Assembly: GCA_013115125.1 (NCBI GenBank)
Contig: JABANN010000399.1
Span: 1 to 32,742 of the forward strand
DNA length: 32,742 nucleotides
Direction of reading: 5' to 3'
From: Perkinsus olseni
Taxonomy: Eukaryota
Below, piece after piece: positions 10,147 to 18,398 of the stretch. The notes below the pieces were generated by a model. It was not told the origin of the DNA. It was given only the letters and a program-made list of their open reading frames with translations, and searched no databases. The translations under genes were made by a program, and so were the position numbers. Every line of letters starts with the position of its first letter. The first letter of the stretch is position 1.

Positions 10147-13004
10147 CTACGGAAACAACGTGGCCAGCTGCATGGTTTGCTTCGTGAAAGGGTGGGTCTC
10201 CGAGGGTTGAGGAGCTGAGAGAATCTCCTGAACGAAAACGGTGAGTGCTGAACCCAGCAAGGGAGAGTCATCATCCTTGCCTTCGAATACATCCCACGTT
10301 GTGAGATCATCCTCCCTGTAAGTCGAGTCGTCAGAAGGGCCTCGGCAATGGAGTGTGTCTAGGGTGTCTGAGTTCGTGTCTTCCTGGAGCATGAACAAGT
10401 TCCTCCTGACAGAGGAATAAATATATTGTCATCATAGCAACACAGGGAGTCGCTTTGAGCATAGTTGGGGCGTGAGGAGCGGCATTGAGCGCCGTGTACC
10501 TCCGAGGGGTGTCTTACAGATGGGCAGCGGAGAACAAAGAAGAGCCAGCGCTTCTCCTATCAGCATCGTCCCTCGGCACGGCAGATGATGATGACGCCGA
10601 GGATGAGCTTCGACGACTAGCTGATTCTTCACGTACACTGTCATCTTGCACGACTAGTTCGCTGAGGCTATCCTTCTTCATCTGCCGCTGATATATCTTC
10701 TCCTCAATGGTGCCTAGCAGCTGGTAGTACCCGCCGGGTACTGGAGAACAATGAGGGGTTGCGCAACTCCACCTGTAGAGAGGAGTCTATATATCCAGCA
10801 TGTCTTGGTTTGACCATCTCTCCATATCCTAGCCATAGCTTGCCTATCATTGGCTGGATTCCAATCCGGGTCGAACATGATAAGCCGGTTCCCGCCTACG
10901 AGGCAGCACAGTAATAGTGATAACAGCCCAGATCTCTACCGAGGACCTATGAGATTCAACCCACAGCCGCCCGCCTTCGATGAAAGTAGGAATACAAAAG
11001 CATCAGCCTTCGGATCATTGAAGGTTGACACTAGAGAGTGCCGTTTTTTCACCTGACCACGTCAGCAGGGCTGCTTCCCCGAGAAGATCCACAGAAGGAG
11101 TGTCTACCCCGATGCTGCCATCGAGACGGATAACCGGCCACCCTTCCTCTTGGCACATCCTCTGCAGCAGATCGATTGTCTGAGTGTAATTGGATATGAC
11201 GACAACCCGGTCAGAGTTGCGTCCGCCAGTGGTCCTCAAGGTTCGGAGGAAATGGTACACCAAGGAGAATTTCGCTGAAGCTGATACTCTGAAGAAGGAG
11301 GGGTATTGCGAATCCTGCGACGCTGACTCAGCCCCTACATCACTTTATCCCCTCTATTCCGTCCCGATTCCTTAGCCGCTCGAGTGAGCTCATCCAGCTC
11401 GGTGAAGACGCTATCCGCTGCTTCAAAGCCCTTCTCGCATCGTTTATCGAACCGTCGAATGAGAGAAGGATGATTACATAACTTGGTCAAGCTTTGTATC
11501 AGAGACAATACGTTCTTGCCAACTTTGCCTCGGCTGGCAGACTTAGCAACAGTCGTCTTGACACAATCACTGCTTATGAATGCTTTGTATAGCTGAGTCT
11601 GGATATCGCTAAGTCGCACAAATGCCACCAGAATATGTTTCGGTGGCAGTACCTAAGACAATGGAATTTAGAGTGTTTATGGACGACACTCACTTTTGCT
11701 AACAGAGCATTGGTTCTGCGGAGGATGAACTTGTTGCTCATATCACTCAGCTCAGCTAACCGTTCATCAGCTAGAGCCTTCTCTTCTGCTGACGCTCCAG
11801 GCTCTCTGCCTCGACTGATTGGGTTAGCGAATCGCTTCCGGAAACTGTTGCGGCCTTTCTCCTCACCCAGACAAGGATTCGCTAAGGTAATCATAGCGAA
11901 GAACTCGTCAAGATCATTCTGTATAGGTGTGCCCGATAGAAGAAGTCTCTTTCGTGTTCGCAGCCCATTGATGCATACAGCTGTTCTCGTACGGTCATTC
12001 TTCAGGCGGTGCGCCTCATCACACACCAGCAATCCAATGGGGCAGTCAGCGAGGAGTTCACAGTGATTTCTGAAAGTCTCATAGGAGGCAATCAGGACTC
12101 GCATCTCTCGATTATACCTAAAGGGAAGTAGATGCGAGGAGGCTTCAAGGTGTTGGGACCCACAGGAATCCAGTGAAGGCACCAATGACTTTCTCACGCT
12201 GACTTTCTGCAACAGCGCAAACCTTGACGCTATCACCGAGCCACTTGCCGAACTCGGCCTCCCAGTTCTTCACCAATGCTGCAGGGCATATCACTAGAGC
12301 TCTGCCAAGTTAGGCTCCGTCACACGATACGATGAGTAACTATACCTTTCTATAGCCGGGCCACGATTCCTGACTGTATTGGCGGTAAGGAGGGTCCAAA
12401 CTAGTGTTACGGATTGTAAGGTCTTCCCTAAACCCATATCGTCCGCTAGTATACAGCCTTCACCATCGAAGTCCTCGATGAGGCCCATTAGACAGTTAAA
12501 TACGAATTGGACGCCTTGCCTGAAATGGTCATCATAGCGAGTATCAACGCGTGTATGTCATCACCTTTGATGATCCCTCAAGACACCCGACAGGCGCGGG
12601 TCAACGACAACTTCATGGCCATTCTCTGCACGCCACAGTACAAGTCGATGCTCATCATTCACAGATTTCTCGATCTGTTTTGAAGACCCATCATCAAGAT
12701 CACTGTCCCCACTCTGAGGCTGCGGTTTGTATCGTAGAATAGATTCAGTCCCATACCGCCGCCTGCATCCTAGGGTCTTCCTCCGCCCAGCAATACTCTG
12801 CTGCGCAGCGATATTTTCCGCAACATCCTCACGCCTTAGGGGGCACTTGAAGGGAGCCTTCAAGACGTCGTACTCAGTACCATCCACAAATAGCATTGGC
12901 ATGATTGGTGCTCGTATGAGTACGATGCTGGTGGACGCCTGACCATCTTCCGGCGACCCAGAATTGCCTTCAGTGACGAAGCCCACTTGGAAGGAACGTC
13001 TCAT
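10147..13004 (-). CDS. RAD54: DNA repair/recombination SNF2-family ATPase RAD54, multi-exon
   Basis: [101 protein letters not shown]. The 3' end is approximate. Confidence 0.93.
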
Positions 13005-13224
13005 TGTGGAGGGTCACACTTAGCTGAGGCGACCCATATTGCATCCCATATTGAGTGATCGATCACTATAACGCAAAGGCCATGATATAGAAATGAAATC
13101 TAGTGAAGATTGACAAAACATAGTTTATAGAACCACTCGTCAGGATCGCATCCCTCTAGGAACCACTATCGGGGCATGTAGTGATTGGATACATGAAAGT
13201 ACTACGCCAAGCAAGGTCAGAACC

Positions 13225-16200
13225 TCAATTGGAAGCTACAGCTGGAGCATCATGGTGACGGGCTCCCTGCGGCCTGAAGACCACATGCGGGACAGTGGTG
13301 AGGAATACGGGAAGACAGCTTACTTTCCTCGTCTCCAGTTATGATACCCCGCACGATAGTTCGAGCGAGTCACGTGGATTTCAGTGGGATCATCGGCCTG
13401 GTCCATGACTGCTCTTTCGAGGAGCATGCGCGACACATTAGCAAGAACCTTGAAGGCCTCTAGCATGAAGCCAAATACAGCGGGAGTAAGCTACATCATG
13501 TATCTCTCCCTTCGCACCCTTATGACCACCCTTACGCCAATTCATATAGTCATCTCTATACATGCCCAAGGCCTTGAGCTCCTGTGAGAAATCTGTAGGA
13601 GAAAAGGCGATGACGGGACCCTCCTCCAGCTGGACTCAGGTAGCTACTACCAGGAAGGTTGGCAACGTCTTCTTTCGTTGGCGGGGGGCGCTCGGAAGGT
13701 GTCGTAGCCATCGACACCAGGGAGGCCGAGGACCACTCTGAAACGGGATTATTACGCTTGCTGCGATACTTGTGAATGTCAAGAGGAGTTGCGACGGCTT
13801 ACCCCCAGCCAATAGACTGCTCAGTCCAGCACGGCTTCTAGACATTCCAAGAGGTAGCTTAGCCGCAACATCCTCTGCAACTTTCCTGTATCCCACACGC
13901 TCCAATGCCCGCGATAAAACACGTCTCCAGTCTTCCCAGTTATCCAAGCGGTACCTTGAAGAATCCTGTGAGCCAACGAAGCCCGCAGGGCCGTGAACAT
14001 ATACCTTCCATCCGGAGGAATATCCGAGTTATACGGAGCAGTGAATAAAACATGTTCCCATGCTGGATACTCCGAGCCCGTAATGTATGGTTTATCATCT
14101 ATCAAGACGTCACCGCGTATCCTAGTCTTATCCGATGTGATGATAAGCCTCTTCAGCCACCTGGTCAGTACGGCTGTTGGGAGGACGTCGCTTATGAATA
14201 GGCTTACTCGTCTCCGAGCCTTTCCTTCACCCATTGAGCCTTCTCCTGATGACAGAAACTGGATGCGAGGATAGGTGAAGTGCACAGAAGGAGCGACACA
14301 CCTATGGATAGGTAGCAAGTTCTAACGCTTCCTGGATCGCCAATACTACCAGGCAGGGCTCCCATCTCACGGATGGCGTCCAAGCTCCCTGGCATTGCAG
14401 GGAGGCTTGCAAAGAATCCCTTAGAACAAAAAAGGTCTGTAGCTTGCTTTTTATATCTACGCCATGAAGAGCTCAGATCGAGCACTGCCTGCCTCCTTTA
14501 CTTTGCCGGAACACATAACTCCATTGCGTAGCTTTTGCTCCTATCAATGTCGCTACGTTGGCCCCAGGCGGCTCCTGAGGAGAGCAATGAAAGCGTGTCC
14601 AGCCTACACGATGTGCGCTACTGAATCCACTGTCCCAGTCCACCACGCAGCCATCCATATCTAGAAGTATGCAGATAGGAGAGAGGGTGCGAGCGATGGA
14701 AGCGTAGCGATCATTCATACCTGCCACCGCACTTCTGAATCTGTTTGCAGACAGAAGCACGGCTAGGCCCCTATCTATGGAGTACAATCGAGGGTTAGGT
14801 GTTCCTTCGCGTGTTCCTCAGCCCTCAACCCCATCTCGGATCTGAGTTGAGGATTATCAGCTACTTCTGCCATTGCCTTGACAAAGCCATCCTCGTCATC
14901 GGGATCGATGATCTAATGGAGGCGTCGACTGAAGAAGCTTGAATCGATTGGCTCCCACTCACATAACCATGCTCTCCGTGGGTTAGCATCTCCGGAATGC
15001 CTGCAATTCCGGTCGTGATGACTGGCAGGCGTCTGAGCATTGCTTCAGGCAAGACCTACAGATAAGGAAAGCCACGATTGGCCCCATAACCACTTAGGAG
15101 GCGAGCTGCTCACTAACGGGGTGACCTCATTGACTGAGGCAAATACTAAAGCATCGGCCGCCCTATAGTATCTAAGAAGGCGAACTAACCATGGAAAATG
15201 AGGTCCGTGCTTTGAGTGTTACGAATCAGGATCACTAGTAACATCATGTAAAGATATTCTTGGATCGTCTGCTATGGCCTCCTCGACCTGTAGCATAGTC
15301 GTATAGTTCAGCTAGGGAGTCTAAGACATGTTGTATTACCTCATTCACGTACTCGATCTCATAGTCTCTAATACGACGGACACCCACGATAACAAGTCGA
15401 ACCTAAGTTATTGAGGTGAGCCGCGACGTCTGGTGTCATACAATCGATGAATGATACCCGACAAAGCACTACATCTGGCCTATCTCCGGCAAACTTCTTA
15501 AATAGCTTGACAACTGTAACTTGGTTTTTTCTCGGGCATACGATTCCCATGCACAGAAAAGTGCATACCACGGATGAATCCTTCGAGGATGGGTATGCTG
15601 CAGATGAGAGTCTTGGATCAGGCACCCCAACATAGCTGAAAAAAAGGGAACGTGAACATGTATTATCCGATACAGCAGAGTAATACACAATTTGTTTCGG
15701 GCACTTTATCGGGTAAACATCGGCTTGTGCTTTACAGACGCAAATGACCATACTACAGACCTGCAATACGCTATAGACTGTGAGTTCCAACGATGAGATC
15801 ATAATCACTTGTAGCGCATGATCCACGGTGGATGCATCCATAAATGTGACCTTACGAGCTGCCAACTCTCGGACCTGCAAGCCCGCGGTACGACCTCATG
15901 AAGCAGAGCAATACTGTTGATCCAGTCATACTACCAGCATATCCCTCGGCCACCACTCGTGTAGAATCCACATGTGGGGTATGCCACGATTGGCAAGATC
16001 TACTACTACATGAGCTGTCATTATTGTGTTACATACCACAAGTCTAACATCTCTAATATAACCTAAGGGCAGGTGTTTCCAGATCGGAGGATATTGAATA
16101 GTTACGAAGTAGGGAATCTAATGAGCCAATCCTAACGGCACAACCAGCTGCCTGAAATAGTTTCTCAAAAGGGCCAGAACTCGGAGAGAGCACCTGAGAA

Positions 16201-16625
16201 ATTACCACCCGGGACAACAGAATGAGGCCACCTCACAATACCATAATATTGCCATTATAAAAACCACCGTTGACCATATTCAGTAACACCTGATTGGCCC
16301 CCGATACAGCAAAGTTCTGCGTGACAATGAGACATGTACCATACATAGCGTTAGACAAGTGCACAAACTGCCAAGGCGCAATTGATACTCTAATCCACTC
16401 GAATACAAGAAGATATTCAGCACTTCTCCTGAGAGCTCTTGAAGGCACAATAATCACGAAGTCCCAGGCCCCTTACCAATAATTTATCAGAAAAGCAACA
16501 AGATCTGTAGTAGACAGAAACCGTTGTAGATTCCGAGCCGACTCTTCCAAGTTTGGAAGAGCGGCACAAGCAATAAAGCTCTACTAAACAACTCTTTACG
16601 AGACTCGCCGAGCGAGAACTGCCAT
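13225..16625 (-). CDS. GT-B (GT4-like) glycosyltransferase fused to an NT5C/NT5M-type 5'(3')-deoxyribonucleotidase HAD domain, multi-exon
   Basis: GT part: SGANQVL, WILHEW, GIVCPRKNQ, ADALVFASVNEVTP, EAMLRRLPVITTGIAGIPE. HAD part: LLDMDGCVVD, GFFASLPAMPGS, CTSP, EKAQWV, DKTRIRGDVLIDDKP, LFTAPYN. The two join in frame via a GT-AG intron at 14721-14785. The start codon is uncertain (16.58-16.70 kb). Confidence 0.8.
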
Positions 16626-16758
16626 CAACAATATGATGACGAAGAAACTAAATTAGTAGTAGCCACCGCAGCCAGCTGATACCCAAGAGGGCAGAGCTAG
16701 CACGTCTGCAGGGGATAGCTATACGCAGTCTCAGAGCAGACGTGATTTTGCATTATAA

Positions 16759-18051
16759 TTAATTACCGAAGGAAAGATCACGGAAAGGATCCTCAGCAGA
16801 GGTATCATTCATAGTGATCTCACCACGGATATTAACACCAAAGTTCGTATTAATGTCGGAAGTCTTCATACCAGCACCCAACATGTAACTGAGCTTCGTT
16901 ACAGCAGCCTCGGGAGTCATATCACCGCCGCTGATGACACCGAGATCGAGAAGCTGAGCTCCAGCGGCATAATCGGCAAGCTCAACGACACCACGAAGAA
17001 CTTGGGATACGGCAACAACTGGCACATCAAGGTTCTGGCACTTGATAAGGAAGTTGGTGAAAGCAGGCTGGTTAGAGGGAGCATCACCAGTACCGTACAA
17101 CATAAGGACGACACCCTTGACAGCCTCAGGCGAGAGAGACTCGAAGCTGGTGAGACCTGGGATGACTCTGATGGGAAGGATGGAAGACTCCATGTTAGAC
17201 TGGACAGCGAAGGGACCAGTGGGAGCAGGAAGCATGAGTTCCTTATCGAATGCAAGACCGACACCCATAGTGGCGAGATAAGGGTACTTGGGGGACTCGA
17301 AGGCCTCGATAGCACCACTATCGATCTTGACAGCACGAGTTCCGCGGATGAGCTCAGTGTCGAAGAAGATGCTAACTTCAGGGACAGTATAGAGACCAGC
17401 GAGCATGATGGAAATGATCATATTCCTTCTGGCATCACTATGGGGCTCATCAAAGGCAAGAATGGAACCAGTGATGATAACACTCTTAGAAAGGTTCGAG
17501 AACATGTAGTCAAGAGCACTGGAGGAGTAGGCCATGGTATCAGTTCCATGGAGAATGACGAAGCCATCATAGTCCGCATAGTGGTCGTCTATAGTCTTCG
17601 TCATTTGTGCCCAGTTAGCAGGGGACATATCGGAACTATCAATGAGGTTCTCATACTCGATCACATCGAAGTCGGGCATACCGGGAGCCTGGAGCTCGGG
17701 AAGGTTATTGAGCTGCTCGGTAAGATATCCGGGGACGGGATGAAGGGTACCGTTAGCGTAGGGCTTCATACCAATAGTACCACCGGTATATATAACGAGA
17801 ACCTTCCCAGGTGCGTGTCTCTCCATAGGACTGTAGACGGGCCTCAGGACCTCATCATCACAGTCGGCACCCTCAGTGGGTTGGAAACAGAAACCCTTCC
17901 CCTTCTGGTAGAAACCATAGCAAGCACCATCCTCCTGGGGATAAGATCCGAACTTGGAGAAATGGCAAGGGGAATAGGAGTCACACAACTCCTGGCACCA
18001 CTCGGCGGAAGCGGCACCAATCAAAGAGAGAGCGAAGAGAGAAAAACGCAT
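16759..18051 (-). CDS. L-asparaginase (type I/AnsA-like) with signal peptide and Cys-rich N-terminal module, intronless
   Basis: YTGGTIGM and HGTDTMAY catalytic-Thr motifs, DSSDM, SDARRN, GDMTPEAAVTKL. Start MRFSLFALSLIGAASA at 18051. Confidence 0.93.
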   Translation of the reverse strand: MRFSLFALSLIGAASAEWCQELCDSYSPCHFSKFGSYPQEDGACYGFYQKGKGFCFQPTEGADCDDEVLRPVYSPMERHAPGKVLVIYTGGTIGMKPYANGTLHPVPGYLTEQLNNLPELQAPGMPDFDVIEYENLIDSSDMSPANWAQMTKTIDDHYADYDGFVILHGTDTMAYSSSALDYMFSNLSKSVIITGSILAFDEPHSDARRNMIISIMLAGLYTVPEVSIFFDTELIRGTRAVKIDSGAIEAFESPKYPYLATMGVGLAFDKELMLPAPTGPFAVQSNMESSILPIRVIPGLTSFESLSPEAVKGVVLMLYGTGDAPSNQPAFTNFLIKCQNLDVPVVAVSQVLRGVVELADYAAGAQLLDLGVISGGDMTPEAAVTKLSYMLGAGMKTSDINTNFGVNIRGEITMNDTSAEDPFRDLSFGN

Positions 18052-18398
18052 CCCGATCGTTATAAATGAATAAACTGAGATCACACAGAATGGATTGTAT
18101 TATCTACGCATAACAGACTGCGCCCATAACAGACTTATTTTCTGTGCTTAATGACAAAATGATCGCGAGATGACGAACACCGCGAAGGGTAAAGGACAAC
18201 AGCCCGCACAGCGAGTCTCTCGAACTTAGCTAAGCTCCTACAGGTCTATCACGCTGTAGGCATTCCTCTGGAGACAATCACACAAAACAAAGGCTCACGG
18301 AACAACAACGCGACCCTCACTCTAAGAAACAGCGCATTCTACTAATGACCAAGATATAAACGTTATTGGCTGTCGTCGGCGTTATCAGCCGGCGTGCC

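What the first reader, a model, noticed from the sequence alone, without database searches (positions are those of the whole stretch)
13225..16625. GT4 glycosyltransferase-NT5C HAD phosphatase fusion: candidate two-step pathway in one polypeptide
Seen: removing a 65-nt GT-AG intron (14721-14785) gives EEHAKEHLTLDC-MNDRYASIARTLSPICILLDMDGCVVD. This completes the usual GT4 C-terminal helix and runs straight into HAD motif I. Known: GT-B+HAD fusions (trehalose-6-P synthase/phosphatase, sucrose-P synthase) make and then dephosphorylate a sugar phosphate, but use Cof-type HADs rather than NT5C-type. Inferred: synthesis of an unknown glycoside or osmolyte, or glycosylation/sanitation of modified pyrimidine nucleotides (dinoflagellate relatives carry 5-hydroxymethyluracil). 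Retaining the intron would stop translation at ...LDCTP*, giving a GT-only form.
Basis: partly seen in the sequence, partly recalled or inferred. Interest (0 to 1): 0.75.

Follow-up and report, generated by a model that had tools for sequence, protein, structure and literature searches.

The report
Glycosyltransferase–nucleotidase-type phosphatase fusion gene
A transcribed 21-exon gene of the shellfish parasite Perkinsus olseni encodes one protein that joins a sugar-adding enzyme to a nucleotidase-like phosphatase, an unstudied pairing kept in coral symbionts and other marine protists that probably builds a small sugar compound in two coupled steps.

Summary
Spliced RNA contigs from 4 of 4 runs laid (4 studies) remove the 65-nt GT-AG intron 14785..14721 (minus strand), joining the GT4 exon to the NT5C exon. 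The mRNA has 21 exons, carries a Perkinsus spliced-leader end at 16368/16367, starts at ATG 16346 (not 16625) and stops at 13225. Its 689-aa product is identical to a Perkinsus olseni database protein misnamed "5',3'-nucleotidase, cytosolic".

Layout: GT4 glycosyltransferase (1-356), NT5C-type HAD phosphatase (357-545), disordered linker, family-specific helical tail. Catalytic residues of both enzymes are invariant in 60 of 60 relatives, and the junction is exactly 20 residues in all 60.

The fusion is conserved in Vitrella, Symbiodiniaceae, Amphidinium, Amoebophrya and Ochromonas, with a more distant clade in Bryopsis and Stygamoeba. Pattern-limited scans found no relative in prokaryote genomes or viral contigs.

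Function is inferred, not shown. Most likely it makes and then dephosphorylates a glycoside phosphate (0.4). A serious rival is the reverse order, as in Campylobacter Cj1432 (0.25). My literature searches found no characterisation. It is a new variant of a known kind, of moderate interest.

The parts
13103..16367 (-). Mature mRNA body (21 exons, 2213 nt after splicing); contig 3' ends at 13090-13123
   Evidence: Contigs of X19, X2, X3 (2225/2203/2202 nt) table 8; model length check
16368..16369 (-). AG acceptor for spliced-leader trans-splicing
   Evidence: X19 contig has 10 loose letters beyond 16369 (table 7). Their reverse complement plus this AG equals the last 12 letters of PmaSL1 as printed in PMC3101222
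16344..16346 (-). Start codon, first ATG of the mRNA, 21 nt behind the leader
   Evidence: product identical to P0002
16242..16367 (-). Exon 1
   Evidence: The intron after it (16241-16194) is my prediction, checked by contig record coordinates and by identity to P0002
16106..16193 (-). Exon 2
   Evidence: flanking introns predicted, summed length 199 nt matches table 8; identity to P0002
15935..16062 (-). Exon 3
15809..15874 (-). Exon 4
15687..15760 (-). Exon 5
   Evidence: (joint 15635>15687)
15473..15635 (-). Exon 6
   Evidence: joints
15340..15402 (-). Exon 7
   Evidence: joints
15223..15287 (-). Exon 8
   Evidence: joints
15114..15171 (-). Exon 9 (ends inside the EX7E motif)
   Evidence: joints
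14963..15055 (-). Exon 10
   Evidence: joints
14786..14912 (-). Exon 11, last exon that is purely GT4
   Evidence: joints
14721..14785 (-). The finding's 65-nt GT-AG intron; holds an in-frame TAG 2 codons in
   Evidence: Joint in 4 of 4 runs (table 5); GT..AG at shift +3; stop if retained
14622..14720 (-). Exon 12: end of the last GT4 helix plus HAD motif I (DMDG)
14502..14574 (-). Exon 13
   Evidence: Intron 14621-14575 read from X1 loose ends (table 7)
14350..14456 (-). Exon 14
14208..14301 (-). Exon 15 (HAD motif II)
14005..14160 (-). Exon 16 (HAD motifs III and IV)
13803..13954 (-). Exon 17
13651..13737 (-). Exon 18 (disordered linker)
13495..13592 (-). Exon 19 (first WRxG motif)
13324..13448 (-). 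Exon 20 (second WRxG motif)
13103..13273 (-). Exon 21 with stop codon TGA 13227-13225 and the 3' UTR
14683..16346 (-). Codes for the GT4 glycosyltransferase domain, residues 1-356 (introns included in the span)
   Evidence: PF00534 87.3 bits, cut-off 26.4; Z 24-28 to GT4 structures over 325-338 residues
13879..14682 (-). Codes for the NT5C-type HAD phosphatase domain, residues 357-545
   Evidence: PF06941 58.5 bits, cut-off 24.8; human cdN/mdN E about 1e-35; Z about 25, rmsd 1.6-1.8 A, 35% identity
13225..13878 (-). Codes for the disordered linker (about 546-590) and the family-specific helical tail (about 591-675) with two Y..WRxG...GAKG motifs, plus the stop codon
   Evidence: pLDDT under 50 for 551-588; helices 602-619, 630-649, 654-671; no Pfam match; motif counts

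Best explanation
The locus is one gene of Perkinsus olseni. Its mRNA is trans-spliced to the spliced leader, loses 20 short introns, and is translated into a 689-residue soluble enzyme with two active sites.

Shown:
- One spliced mRNA with one ORF.
- A GT-B fold GT4 domain with its NDP-sugar-binding residues.
- A complete NT5C-type HAD phosphatase domain, rigidly joined to the GT4 domain by its last helix.
- A family-specific C-terminal helical tail.

Inferred mechanism:
1. The GT4 domain transfers a sugar from an NDP-sugar, with retention, to a small phosphorylated acceptor. Candidates are a glycerol, glycerate, inositol or furanose phosphate.
2. The attached phosphatase removes that phosphate, which makes the synthesis irreversible.
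3. The product is a neutral glycoside, most plausibly a compatible solute or storage heteroside.

This is the logic of sucrose-phosphate synthase/phosphatase and TPS/TPP. The phosphatase, however, comes from the 5'(3')-deoxyribonucleotidase lineage instead of the Cof/IIB lineage. The tail may regulate or localise the enzyme; that is speculation.
For: One mRNA:
- The joint across 14721-14785 appears in 4 of 4 runs, and single 2.2-kb contigs cover both halves.
- The model is identical to P0002.
- Orthologues assembled from transcriptomes (MMETSP and EukProt entries marked complete) also span both domains.

Both enzymes look active:
- R189, K190, E266 and E274 are present in 60 of 60 relatives, and H99 in 59 of 60.
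- D364, D366, K479, D489 and D490 are present in 60 of 60; position 444 is T in 56 and S in 4.

Coupling:
- The distance from M345 to D364 is exactly 20 residues in 60 of 60.
- 108 of the 113 hits with E <= 3.8e-66 carry both PF00534 and PF06941.
- A second, deeper fused clade exists in other eukaryotic supergroups.

No signal peptide or membrane helix is evident in the model.

Precedent:
- GT4 enzymes that take phosphorylated acceptors for osmolyte synthesis exist. One is the GT4-type trehalose-6-phosphate synthase of Sulfolobus, with a predicted HAD phosphatase (PMC7688234, abstract and passages).
- SPS (6kih), MshA, BshA and TreT are among the structural neighbours.

The named carriers are mostly marine algae, protists and parasites.
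Against: - No enzyme assay, metabolite or expression response links this protein to any glycoside.
- The GT4 domain is equally close (Z 24-28) to polymer-building GT4s (HepE, TarM, PglA, WbnH) and to small-molecule ones. No NCBIfam equivalog reaches its cut-off; the best scores 72.5 bits against 409.
- The phosphatase is 35% identical to true deoxyribonucleotidases and keeps their pocket aromatics: W372, Y392 and F416 in 60 of 60 (residue roles recalled). That would also fit a nucleotide-like substrate.
- The only characterised contiguous GT4-HAD enzyme I found, Cj1432, works phosphatase-first.
- The known floridoside synthases of red algae are TPS-like, not GT4 (titles and abstracts).
Confidence: 0.4

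Rival explanations
1. Same fused enzyme, reverse order. The NT5C domain first dephosphorylates a nucleotide-like (deoxy)ribofuranoside 5-phosphate, either a nucleotide or a phosphoribosylated metabolite or glycan made from PRPP by another enzyme. The GT4 domain then glycosylates the freed riboside. This is what the middle and N-terminal domains of Campylobacter jejuni Cj1432 do.
For: - Cj1432 has a GT4 at 1-356 followed by a HAD phosphatase at 357-573. The HAD removes the 5-phosphate of a riboside before the GT4 adds GlcA to C2 of that ribose (PMC12096443, abstract and passages). Domain order and boundary are the same as here (GT 1-356, HAD 357-545).
- In the Atlas, the best structural row is a 947-aa Campylobacterota 'sugar transferase', aligned over 442 residues spanning query 1-672, more than the GT domain alone. 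This is a lead only.
- The NT5C domain matches mdN/cdN at rmsd 1.6-1.8 A and 35% identity and keeps their aromatic pocket positions.
Against: - No PRPP-dependent ribosyl-phosphate transferase domain is present: Pfam finds nothing beyond residue 545, and the tail is about 100 helical residues.
- The Atlas Campylobacterota cluster lists no NT5C Pfam family, so homology of the two phosphatases is unshown. I could not fetch a Cj1432 sequence to compare.
- I know of no glycosylated riboside or nucleoside in these protists (recall).
Confidence: 0.25
2. The NT5C domain is a genuine 5'(3')-deoxyribonucleotidase working on the nucleotide pool, for example sanitation of modified pyrimidine nucleotides such as 5-hydroxymethyl-dUMP. 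The GT4 domain either glycosylates the released nucleoside or has an unrelated role, so the fusion is not an osmolyte pathway.
For: - E about 1e-35 to human and mouse cdN/mdN.
- All four HAD motifs and the cap length are kept.
- Databases name the protein a nucleotidase; that name is automatic, not tested.
Against: - The fusion is kept in lineages not known to carry 5-hydroxymethyluracil: Vitrella, Ochromonas, Bryopsis, Stygamoeba (base distribution recalled).
- Cap positions next to the base in mdN differ in a family-specific, invariant way. F75 aligns to S/K, and the block R388...Y392.M.E.CVP is invariant or nearly so.
- An exact 20-residue junction in 60 of 60 and invariant GT residues argue that the GT is an obligatory partner, not a passenger.
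Confidence: 0.12
3. The enzyme works on a polymer or glycoconjugate, such as a cell-wall or surface glycan or a glycolipid, at the cytosolic face of a membrane. The basic, aromatic C-terminal tail would provide membrane or polymer attachment.
For: - The best structural neighbours include polysaccharide and teichoic-acid GT4s (HepE Z 28, TarM, PglA, WbnH).
- The best NCBIfam rows are exopolysaccharide GT4s, all far below cut-off.
- Cj1432 is a capsule polymerase with a C-terminal helical bundle.
- The tail motifs W[RK]xG...GAKG occur twice or more in 49 of 60 sequences.
Against: - No membrane segment or signal peptide.
- Tail model confidence is only pLDDT 60-75.
- An NT5C-type phosphatase has no known polymer substrate (recall).
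- The Ochromonas orthologue lacks the tail motifs.
Confidence: 0.1
4. The locus mainly yields two separate proteins: a GT-only form from intron retention (stop after ...LDCTP), and a phosphatase-only form from spliced-leader addition at the AG of 14721 followed by ATG 14718.
For: - Both forms are possible on the sequence.
- Contigs drop rare variants (notes).
- An old P. marinus gene model of 318 aa holds only the phosphatase and tail.
Against: - No contig in the 4 runs retains the intron or carries leader letters at 14720 (tables 5 and 7).
- A GT-only form would lack the last GT4 helix.
- Met345 is conserved also in GT-only relatives, so it is a structural residue of the helix rather than a conserved second start.
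- Orthologous transcript ORFs are continuous.
Confidence: 0.03

Closest known systems
Human and mouse 5'(3')-deoxyribonucleotidases cdN (NT5C) and mdN (NT5M), e.g. PDB 2i7d, 1mh9, 4l6a
   Same: - Residues 357-545 belong to the same Pfam family, PF06941.
- E about 1e-35, 35% identity, Z about 25, rmsd 1.6-1.8 A over about 182 residues.
- DxD, T/S, K and DD motifs are present.
- Aromatic residues sit at the positions of mdN F49, W76 and F102.
   Different: - Here the domain is the C-terminal half of a GT4 fusion, not a free 200-residue enzyme.
- The cap block around R388-P399 is conserved in a family-specific way.
- The substrate is unknown.
Sucrose-phosphate synthase (GT4 plus SPP-like HAD domain) and TPS-TPP fusions (GT20 plus HAD)
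   Same: - GT-B glycosyltransferase at the N-terminus and HAD phosphatase at the C-terminus on one chain.
- This gives the proposed logic of making and then dephosphorylating a glycoside phosphate.
- SPS 6kih is a structural neighbour of the GT domain (Z 25.1).
   Different: - The HAD here is NT5C-type, not the Cof/IIB type (recalled for SPS and TPP).
- SPS is no closer to the GT domain than a dozen other GT4s are.
- All phosphatase catalytic residues are kept here, whereas I recall that many plant SPS and TPS phosphatase-like domains are inactive.
Campylobacter jejuni Cj1432 (GT4 - HAD phosphatase - PRPP ribosyl-5-phosphate transferase - helical bundle; PMC12096443)
   Same: - GT4 followed directly by a HAD phosphatase, with the boundary at residue 356/357.
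- The phosphatase substrate is a ribofuranoside 5-phosphate, chemically a nucleotide analogue.
- A C-terminal helical appendage of unknown role.
   Different: - Cj1432 has a third catalytic domain that is absent here.
- It is a bacterial capsule polymerase.
- Its phosphatase acts before the GT4.
- Sequence homology of the two phosphatases was not tested here.
GT4-type trehalose-6-phosphate synthase of Sulfolobus acidocaldarius with a predicted HAD-type TPP (PMC7688234)
   Same: A GT4 enzyme takes a phosphorylated acceptor in salt-stress osmolyte synthesis, followed by a HAD phosphatase.
   Different: - Two separate proteins.
- Archaeal, with narrow distribution.
- No specific similarity to this GT domain was shown.
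MshA and BshA (GT4, small-molecule acceptors inositol phosphate and malate)
   Same: Among the best sequence and structure matches of the GT domain (E 1e-8 to 1e-9; Z 24-26). MshA's product is dephosphorylated by a separate phosphatase (recalled).
   Different: 14-18% identity only; no fused phosphatase; different biology (thiol cofactor synthesis).

Membership tests
GT4 glycosyltransferases (Pfam Glycos_transf_1, GT-B fold) | Match to PF00534 / PF13692 above the curated cut-off | tested here: met
   PF00534 87.3 bits (cut-off 26.4), residues 180-334; PF13692 79.7 bits (cut-off 27)
GT4 glycosyltransferases (Pfam Glycos_transf_1, GT-B fold) | Two-Rossmann GT-B fold with a C-terminal helix crossing back to the N-domain | tested here: met
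   AF2 model has pLDDT above 90 over most of 1-356. Z 24-28 with 325-338 aligned residues to HepE, BshA, SenB, TarM, SPS, TreT and MshA. Helix 342-356 is made complete only by the splice
GT4 glycosyltransferases (Pfam Glycos_transf_1, GT-B fold) | EX7E motif and the R/K pair of the NDP-sugar site (roles recalled) | tested here: met
   E266 and E274 are 8 residues apart; R189 and K190 are present; all four are in 60 of 60 relatives
GT4 glycosyltransferases (Pfam Glycos_transf_1, GT-B fold) | Transfer of a sugar from an NDP-sugar with retention; identity of donor and acceptor | not testable with these tools
   Needs an enzyme assay. No NCBIfam equivalog reached its cut-off
NT5C family of HAD phosphatases (PF06941; 5'(3')-deoxyribonucleotidases) | Match to PF06941 above the curated cut-off | tested here: met
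   58.5 bits (cut-off 24.8), residues 359-533, profile positions 3-174 of 180
NT5C family of HAD phosphatases (PF06941; 5'(3')-deoxyribonucleotidases) | HAD motifs I-IV (DxD nucleophile and acid, T/S, K, DD) | tested here: met
   D364, D366, K479, D489 and D490 in 60 of 60; position 444 is T in 56 and S in 4. They align with DMDG, CTSP, DKT and LIDD of cdN/mdN
NT5C family of HAD phosphatases (PF06941; 5'(3')-deoxyribonucleotidases) | Fold of cdN/mdN, including the helical cap | tested here: met
   Z 25.2-25.7, rmsd 1.6-2.0 A, 176-187 residues, 34-36% identity; Foldseek TM by target 0.80-0.85
NT5C family of HAD phosphatases (PF06941; 5'(3')-deoxyribonucleotidases) | Nucleoside-binding pocket residues of mdN (F49, F75, W76, W96, F102, I133; roles recalled) | tested here: inconclusive
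   - F49 aligns to W372, W76 to Y392 and F102 to F416, each in 60 of 60.
- W96 aligns to position 410, which is F in 33 of 60.
- F75 aligns to S.
- I133 aligns to position 447, which is V, L or I in 53 of 60.
Aromatic walls fit a base or a sugar ring equally well
NT5C family of HAD phosphatases (PF06941; 5'(3')-deoxyribonucleotidases) | Deoxyribonucleotidase activity | not testable with these tools
   Needs an assay with dNMPs against glycoside phosphates
Bifunctional glycoside-phosphate synthase/phosphatases (SPS-SPP, TPS-TPP type) | GT-B synthase and HAD phosphatase on one polypeptide, synthase first | tested here: met
Bifunctional glycoside-phosphate synthase/phosphatases (SPS-SPP, TPS-TPP type) | Phosphatase of the Cof / subfamily IIB type (S6PP, Trehalose_PPase) | tested here: not met
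   Pfam gives NT5C only, with no S6PP, Trehalose_PPase or Hydrolase_3 match at E <= 0.1. It therefore works like this class at most, and is not a member of those families
Bifunctional glycoside-phosphate synthase/phosphatases (SPS-SPP, TPS-TPP type) | Synthase takes a phosphorylated acceptor, and the phosphatase is specific for its product | not testable with these tools
   Inference only
Cj1432-type capsule enzymes (GT4 - HAD - PRPP ribosyl-phosphate transferase) | GT4 directly followed by a HAD phosphatase | tested here: met
   Boundaries 356/357 here against 356/357 in the paper
Cj1432-type capsule enzymes (GT4 - HAD - PRPP ribosyl-phosphate transferase) | PRPP-dependent ribose-5-phosphate transferase domain | tested here: not met
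   Nothing beyond residue 545 except a disordered linker and about 85 helical residues; no Pfam match
Cj1432-type capsule enzymes (GT4 - HAD - PRPP ribosyl-phosphate transferase) | Sequence homology of the phosphatase domains | not tested
   No Cj1432 sequence could be fetched with the tools left. The Atlas structural row is only a lead

The most novel reading that the evidence does not exclude
The family is a eukaryotic, soluble 'nucleotidase-then-glycosyltransferase' machine. Its deoxyribonucleotidase-derived domain dephosphorylates a nucleotide or another ribofuranoside 5-phosphate. The rigidly attached GT4 domain then glycosylates that riboside, producing a so far undescribed class of glycosyl-riboside or glycosyl-nucleoside metabolites in dinoflagellates, perkinsids, chromerids and chrysophytes.

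A milder novel reading: it is the missing floridoside/isofloridoside-type heteroside phosphate synthase-phosphatase of dinoflagellates and chrysophytes.
Probability: 0.2. Interest if true: 0.8.

Novelty: new variant of a known kind. Interest (0 to 1): 0.55.

Why it matters
If the two domains act on one intermediate, this is a widespread and wholly unstudied metabolic enzyme. It occurs in coral symbionts (Symbiodiniaceae), in parasites of shellfish and of dinoflagellates (Perkinsus, Amoebophrya), and in chromerids and chrysophytes.

It shows that evolution recruited a nucleotidase-type phosphatase, rather than the usual Cof-type one, into the "synthase plus phosphatase" design. It also gives a concrete, clonable candidate for the unidentified enzymes that make heteroside osmolytes in dinoflagellates and chrysophytes. 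None of the papers my searches returned names such a gene.

The public name "5',3'-nucleotidase, cytosolic" is misleading and is spreading through annotations. The finding has limits: the fusion is already present in databases, and its function is only inferred.

Tried and rejected
- **Whole genome:** none is held for this window, so I could not ask whether Perkinsus has a separate cdN-like gene or a PRPP transferase.
- **Earlier scan findings:** by sequence none; by words nothing relevant.
- **Atlas by features:** only generic bacterial GT4 clusters.
- **Tail (residues 586-689):**
  - The Atlas gave no usable feature hit, and structural rows had TM below 0.5.
  - The word-indexed search among shorter proteins gave 1 hit among 7 candidates, a 115-aa fragment.
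  - A weak WRKY Pfam hit on a raw ORF (E 0.0064, below cut-off) did not recur on the real protein. I rejected it.
- **Viral contigs:** 21 pattern matches, none a relative.
- **Prokaryote genomes:** 14 pattern matches, none a relative. Both scans see only sequences that carry the chosen peptide patterns. (alignment A3) failed because it had no stretch conserved enough to search with; I then used A2.
- **'Prokaryotic' short forms:** I considered that the 440-500-aa hits labelled by JGI, and one labelled 'archaeon', might be real prokaryotic forms. I rejected this. They break off at ...DKV/DKT, where this gene has an exon end, and they resemble the Ochromonas sequence. They look like bacterial-style gene calls on eukaryotic contigs. 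This is an inference.
- **Met345 as a conserved internal start:** rejected, because it is also conserved in GT-only relatives.
- **GT domain tree (43 rows, quick method):**
  - This clade is one strongly supported long branch (SH-aLRT 100).
  - Fused and 'GT-only' rows intermix in the other clade, so several 'GT-only' rows are probably truncated models.
  - Long branches make the deeper placements unsafe.
  - I did not build the NT5C tree, for lack of named free-standing sequences.
- **Literature:** searches gave no paper on this architecture. Subscription papers are not covered.
- **RNA runs:** Parts without contig cover are not evidence.

Full report

The gene lies on the minus strand. Position 14785 opens a GT and position 14721 closes an AG, 65 nt apart. 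Read through, the GT4 frame ends ...LTLDCTP and then stops.

I looked for public RNA. Of 24 runs that hold part of 13000-16800 (14 studies), I laid four: X1, X19, X2 and X3, from four studies. X3 is recorded as RNA-Seq.

All four contain a contig with the joint 14717>14783. It skips 65 letters, reads CT..AC on the + strand, and fits equally well 3 places to the right. At least 97 letters lie on the shorter side, and no letters differ (tables 3, 5 and 8). In X19, X2 and X3 a single contig of 2225, 2203 or 2202 nt runs from 16369 to 13103-13123 with all introns removed. RNA molecules that join the last GT4 exon to the first phosphatase exon therefore exist.

These are assembled contigs, so rare isoforms cannot be excluded.

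**2. Gene anatomy**

- Table 5 shows 15 joints and says 5 more were not shown.
- I read one further intron (14621-14575) from the loose ends of X1 (table 7).
- I predicted the other four (16241-16194, 16105-16063, 15934-15875, 15808-15761) from frame-keeping GT-AG pairs.
- Their summed length of 199 nt matches the contig's own coordinates: 354 exon letters between 16240 and 15635.
- All 20 introns are GT-AG and 43-70 nt long.

The X19 contig carries 10 extra letters beyond 16369. Their reverse complement, together with the genomic AG, equals the last 12 letters of the Perkinsus spliced leader PmaSL1 as printed in PMC3101222 (passages read). The mRNA is thus trans-spliced at 16368/16367.

The first ATG is at 16346 and the stop is TGA at 13227-13225. 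Bin 16429-16555 has no cover in X2 and X3, and cover further upstream belongs to the 3' end of the neighbouring asparaginase gene.

The 689-aa product is letter for letter the database protein P0002. That protein is recorded for Perkinsus olseni on a contig of 32,742 bases, the length of this window, and is named "5',3'-nucleotidase, cytosolic". The fused model is therefore already public under a misleading name.

**3. What the protein is**

Pfam finds Glycos_transf_1 (residues 180-334, 87.3 bits) and NT5C (359-533, 58.5 bits), and nothing after residue 545.

An AlphaFold2 model built on 60 relatives has mean pLDDT 84.3 and pTM 0.74:

| Residues | Feature |
|---|---|
| 1-356 | GT-B fold; its last helix (342-356) is completed only by the splice |
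| 359-364 | First HAD strand, following directly |
| 551-588 | Disordered |
| 602-619, 630-649, 654-671 | Three helices of middling confidence (block-mean pLDDT about 50-75) |

The GT domain aligns with many GT4 structures at Z 24-28: HepE, BshA, SenB, TarM, SPS, TreT and MshA. None stands out. The phosphatase aligns with human and mouse cdN and mdN at Z about 25, rmsd 1.6-2.0 A and 34-36% identity.

In the 60-sequence alignment:

- R189, K190, E266 and E274 (the EX7E pair) are in 60 of 60, and H99 is in 59 of 60.
- D364, D366, K479, D489 and D490 are in 60 of 60. Position 444 is T in 56 and S in 4.
- The stretch from M345 to D364 is exactly 20 residues in all 60. Both enzymes look active, and their geometry looks fixed.
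- The tail carries a twice-repeated Y..WRxG...GAKG motif: two or more copies in 49 of 60, one in 10, none in 1.

I found no relatives of the tail outside the family.

**4. Distribution**

The word-indexed search gave 113 proteins with E <= 3.8e-66. Of these, 108 carry both Pfam families. The next hits (E >= 2e-7) are generic GT4s.

Named carriers of this clade are P. chesapeaki, P. marinus (a truncated old model), Vitrella brassicaformis, Symbiodinium natans, Effrenium voratum, Amphidinium, Amoebophrya and Ochromonas. Several of these come from transcript assemblies with complete ORFs.

The exhaustive search found 154 representatives with E <= 1e-30. It revealed a second, more distant fused clade (31-35% identity) that includes Bryopsis, Stygamoeba and an Effrenium paralogue. 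Members of this clade often carry an N-terminal PF08550 motif. GT-only relatives also appeared, including one in the red alga Cyanidium, as did one aminotransferase-GT4-NT5C protein.

In a quick GT-domain tree the present clade is one long, well-supported branch. Fused and GT-only rows intermix elsewhere, so some 'GT-only' rows are probably truncated models.

Pattern-limited scans found no relative in 185,579 prokaryote species genomes or in viral contigs. The short hits labelled 'prokaryotic' or 'archaeon' break off at exon ends and look like eukaryotic contigs called with bacterial rules (inference).

**5. How it most likely works**

What is shown: one mRNA, one ORF, two intact catalytic domains rigidly joined, and the pairing conserved across eukaryotic supergroups.

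What is inferred: that the two act on one intermediate.

*Best reading (0.4).* The GT4 domain glycosylates a small phosphorylated acceptor and the phosphatase then removes the phosphate. This is the logic of SPS/SPP and TPS/TPP, and of the GT4-type TPS with a HAD TPP in Sulfolobus (PMC7688234). The product would be a neutral glycoside such as an osmolyte.

*Main rival (0.25).* The reverse order. In C. jejuni Cj1432, a GT4 (1-356) is followed by a HAD phosphatase (357-573). The phosphatase removes the 5-phosphate of a riboside, which is chemically a nucleotide analogue, before the GT4 glycosylates that ribose (PMC12096443). The present phosphatase descends from true nucleotidases and keeps their aromatic pocket positions. 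An Atlas structural row from Campylobacterota aligns over 442 residues (a lead only). However, the PRPP transferase domain of Cj1432 is absent here.

A role in glycan assembly (0.1). Mainly separate proteins from alternative processing (0.03).

**6. Comparison and novelty**

- It is a member of GT4 and of the NT5C family by every sequence and fold test I could run.
- It is not a member of the SPS/SPP or TPS/TPP families, because its phosphatase is of another HAD type.
- It is not of the Cj1432 type, because the third domain is missing.
- It may still work like either of them.

Seven literature searches found no study of this eukaryotic architecture. Subscription journals are not covered.

Verdict: real, conserved, publicly annotated but misnamed and uncharacterised. 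It is a new variant of a known kind, and I score interest at 0.55.

Noticed in passing
window 16762-18099 (-): An intronless 446-aa ORF directly upstream encodes an asparaginase (PF00710 1.5e-52, PF17763 3.5e-22). Contigs of its 3' end reach down to about 16515-16530. Only about 150 nt therefore separate it from the spliced-leader acceptor of the fusion gene.
   Followed up: partly
window 11577-12269 (-) and ORFs up to 13013: Downstream on the same strand lies an intron-split SNF2-family helicase gene (PF00176 2.5e-30 on one ORF piece). I did not build a gene model for it.
   Followed up: no
P0142, P0145, P0159, P0193/P0277 (relatives, not in the window): In the second fused clade and in a Cyanidium caldarium GT-only relative, the GT4 domain is preceded by the short PF08550 'GATA_AreA' motif (...RLENASWRLW...). 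It was found in 4 of 25 distant relatives scanned. Its role is unknown.
   Followed up: partly
P0267 (894 aa, unnamed source): One relative joins a class I/II aminotransferase domain to GT4 and NT5C. This hints at an amino-phosphate acceptor in that lineage.
   Followed up: no
P0008 (P. marinus, 318 aa) and P0001 (P. chesapeaki, 509 aa): The public orthologue models are truncated. The P. marinus model holds only part of the phosphatase and the tail, and the P. chesapeaki model starts inside the GT4 domain. The fusion is therefore hidden in those annotations.
   Followed up: partly
P0109 and P0099-P0117 (relatives): Hits labelled 'archaeon' or given bacterial-style JGI names end where this gene has exon boundaries and resemble the chrysophyte sequence. 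They are probably eukaryotic DNA binned or called as prokaryotic.
   Followed up: partly
Bin 16429-16555 has depth 0 in X2 and X3.
   Followed up: yes
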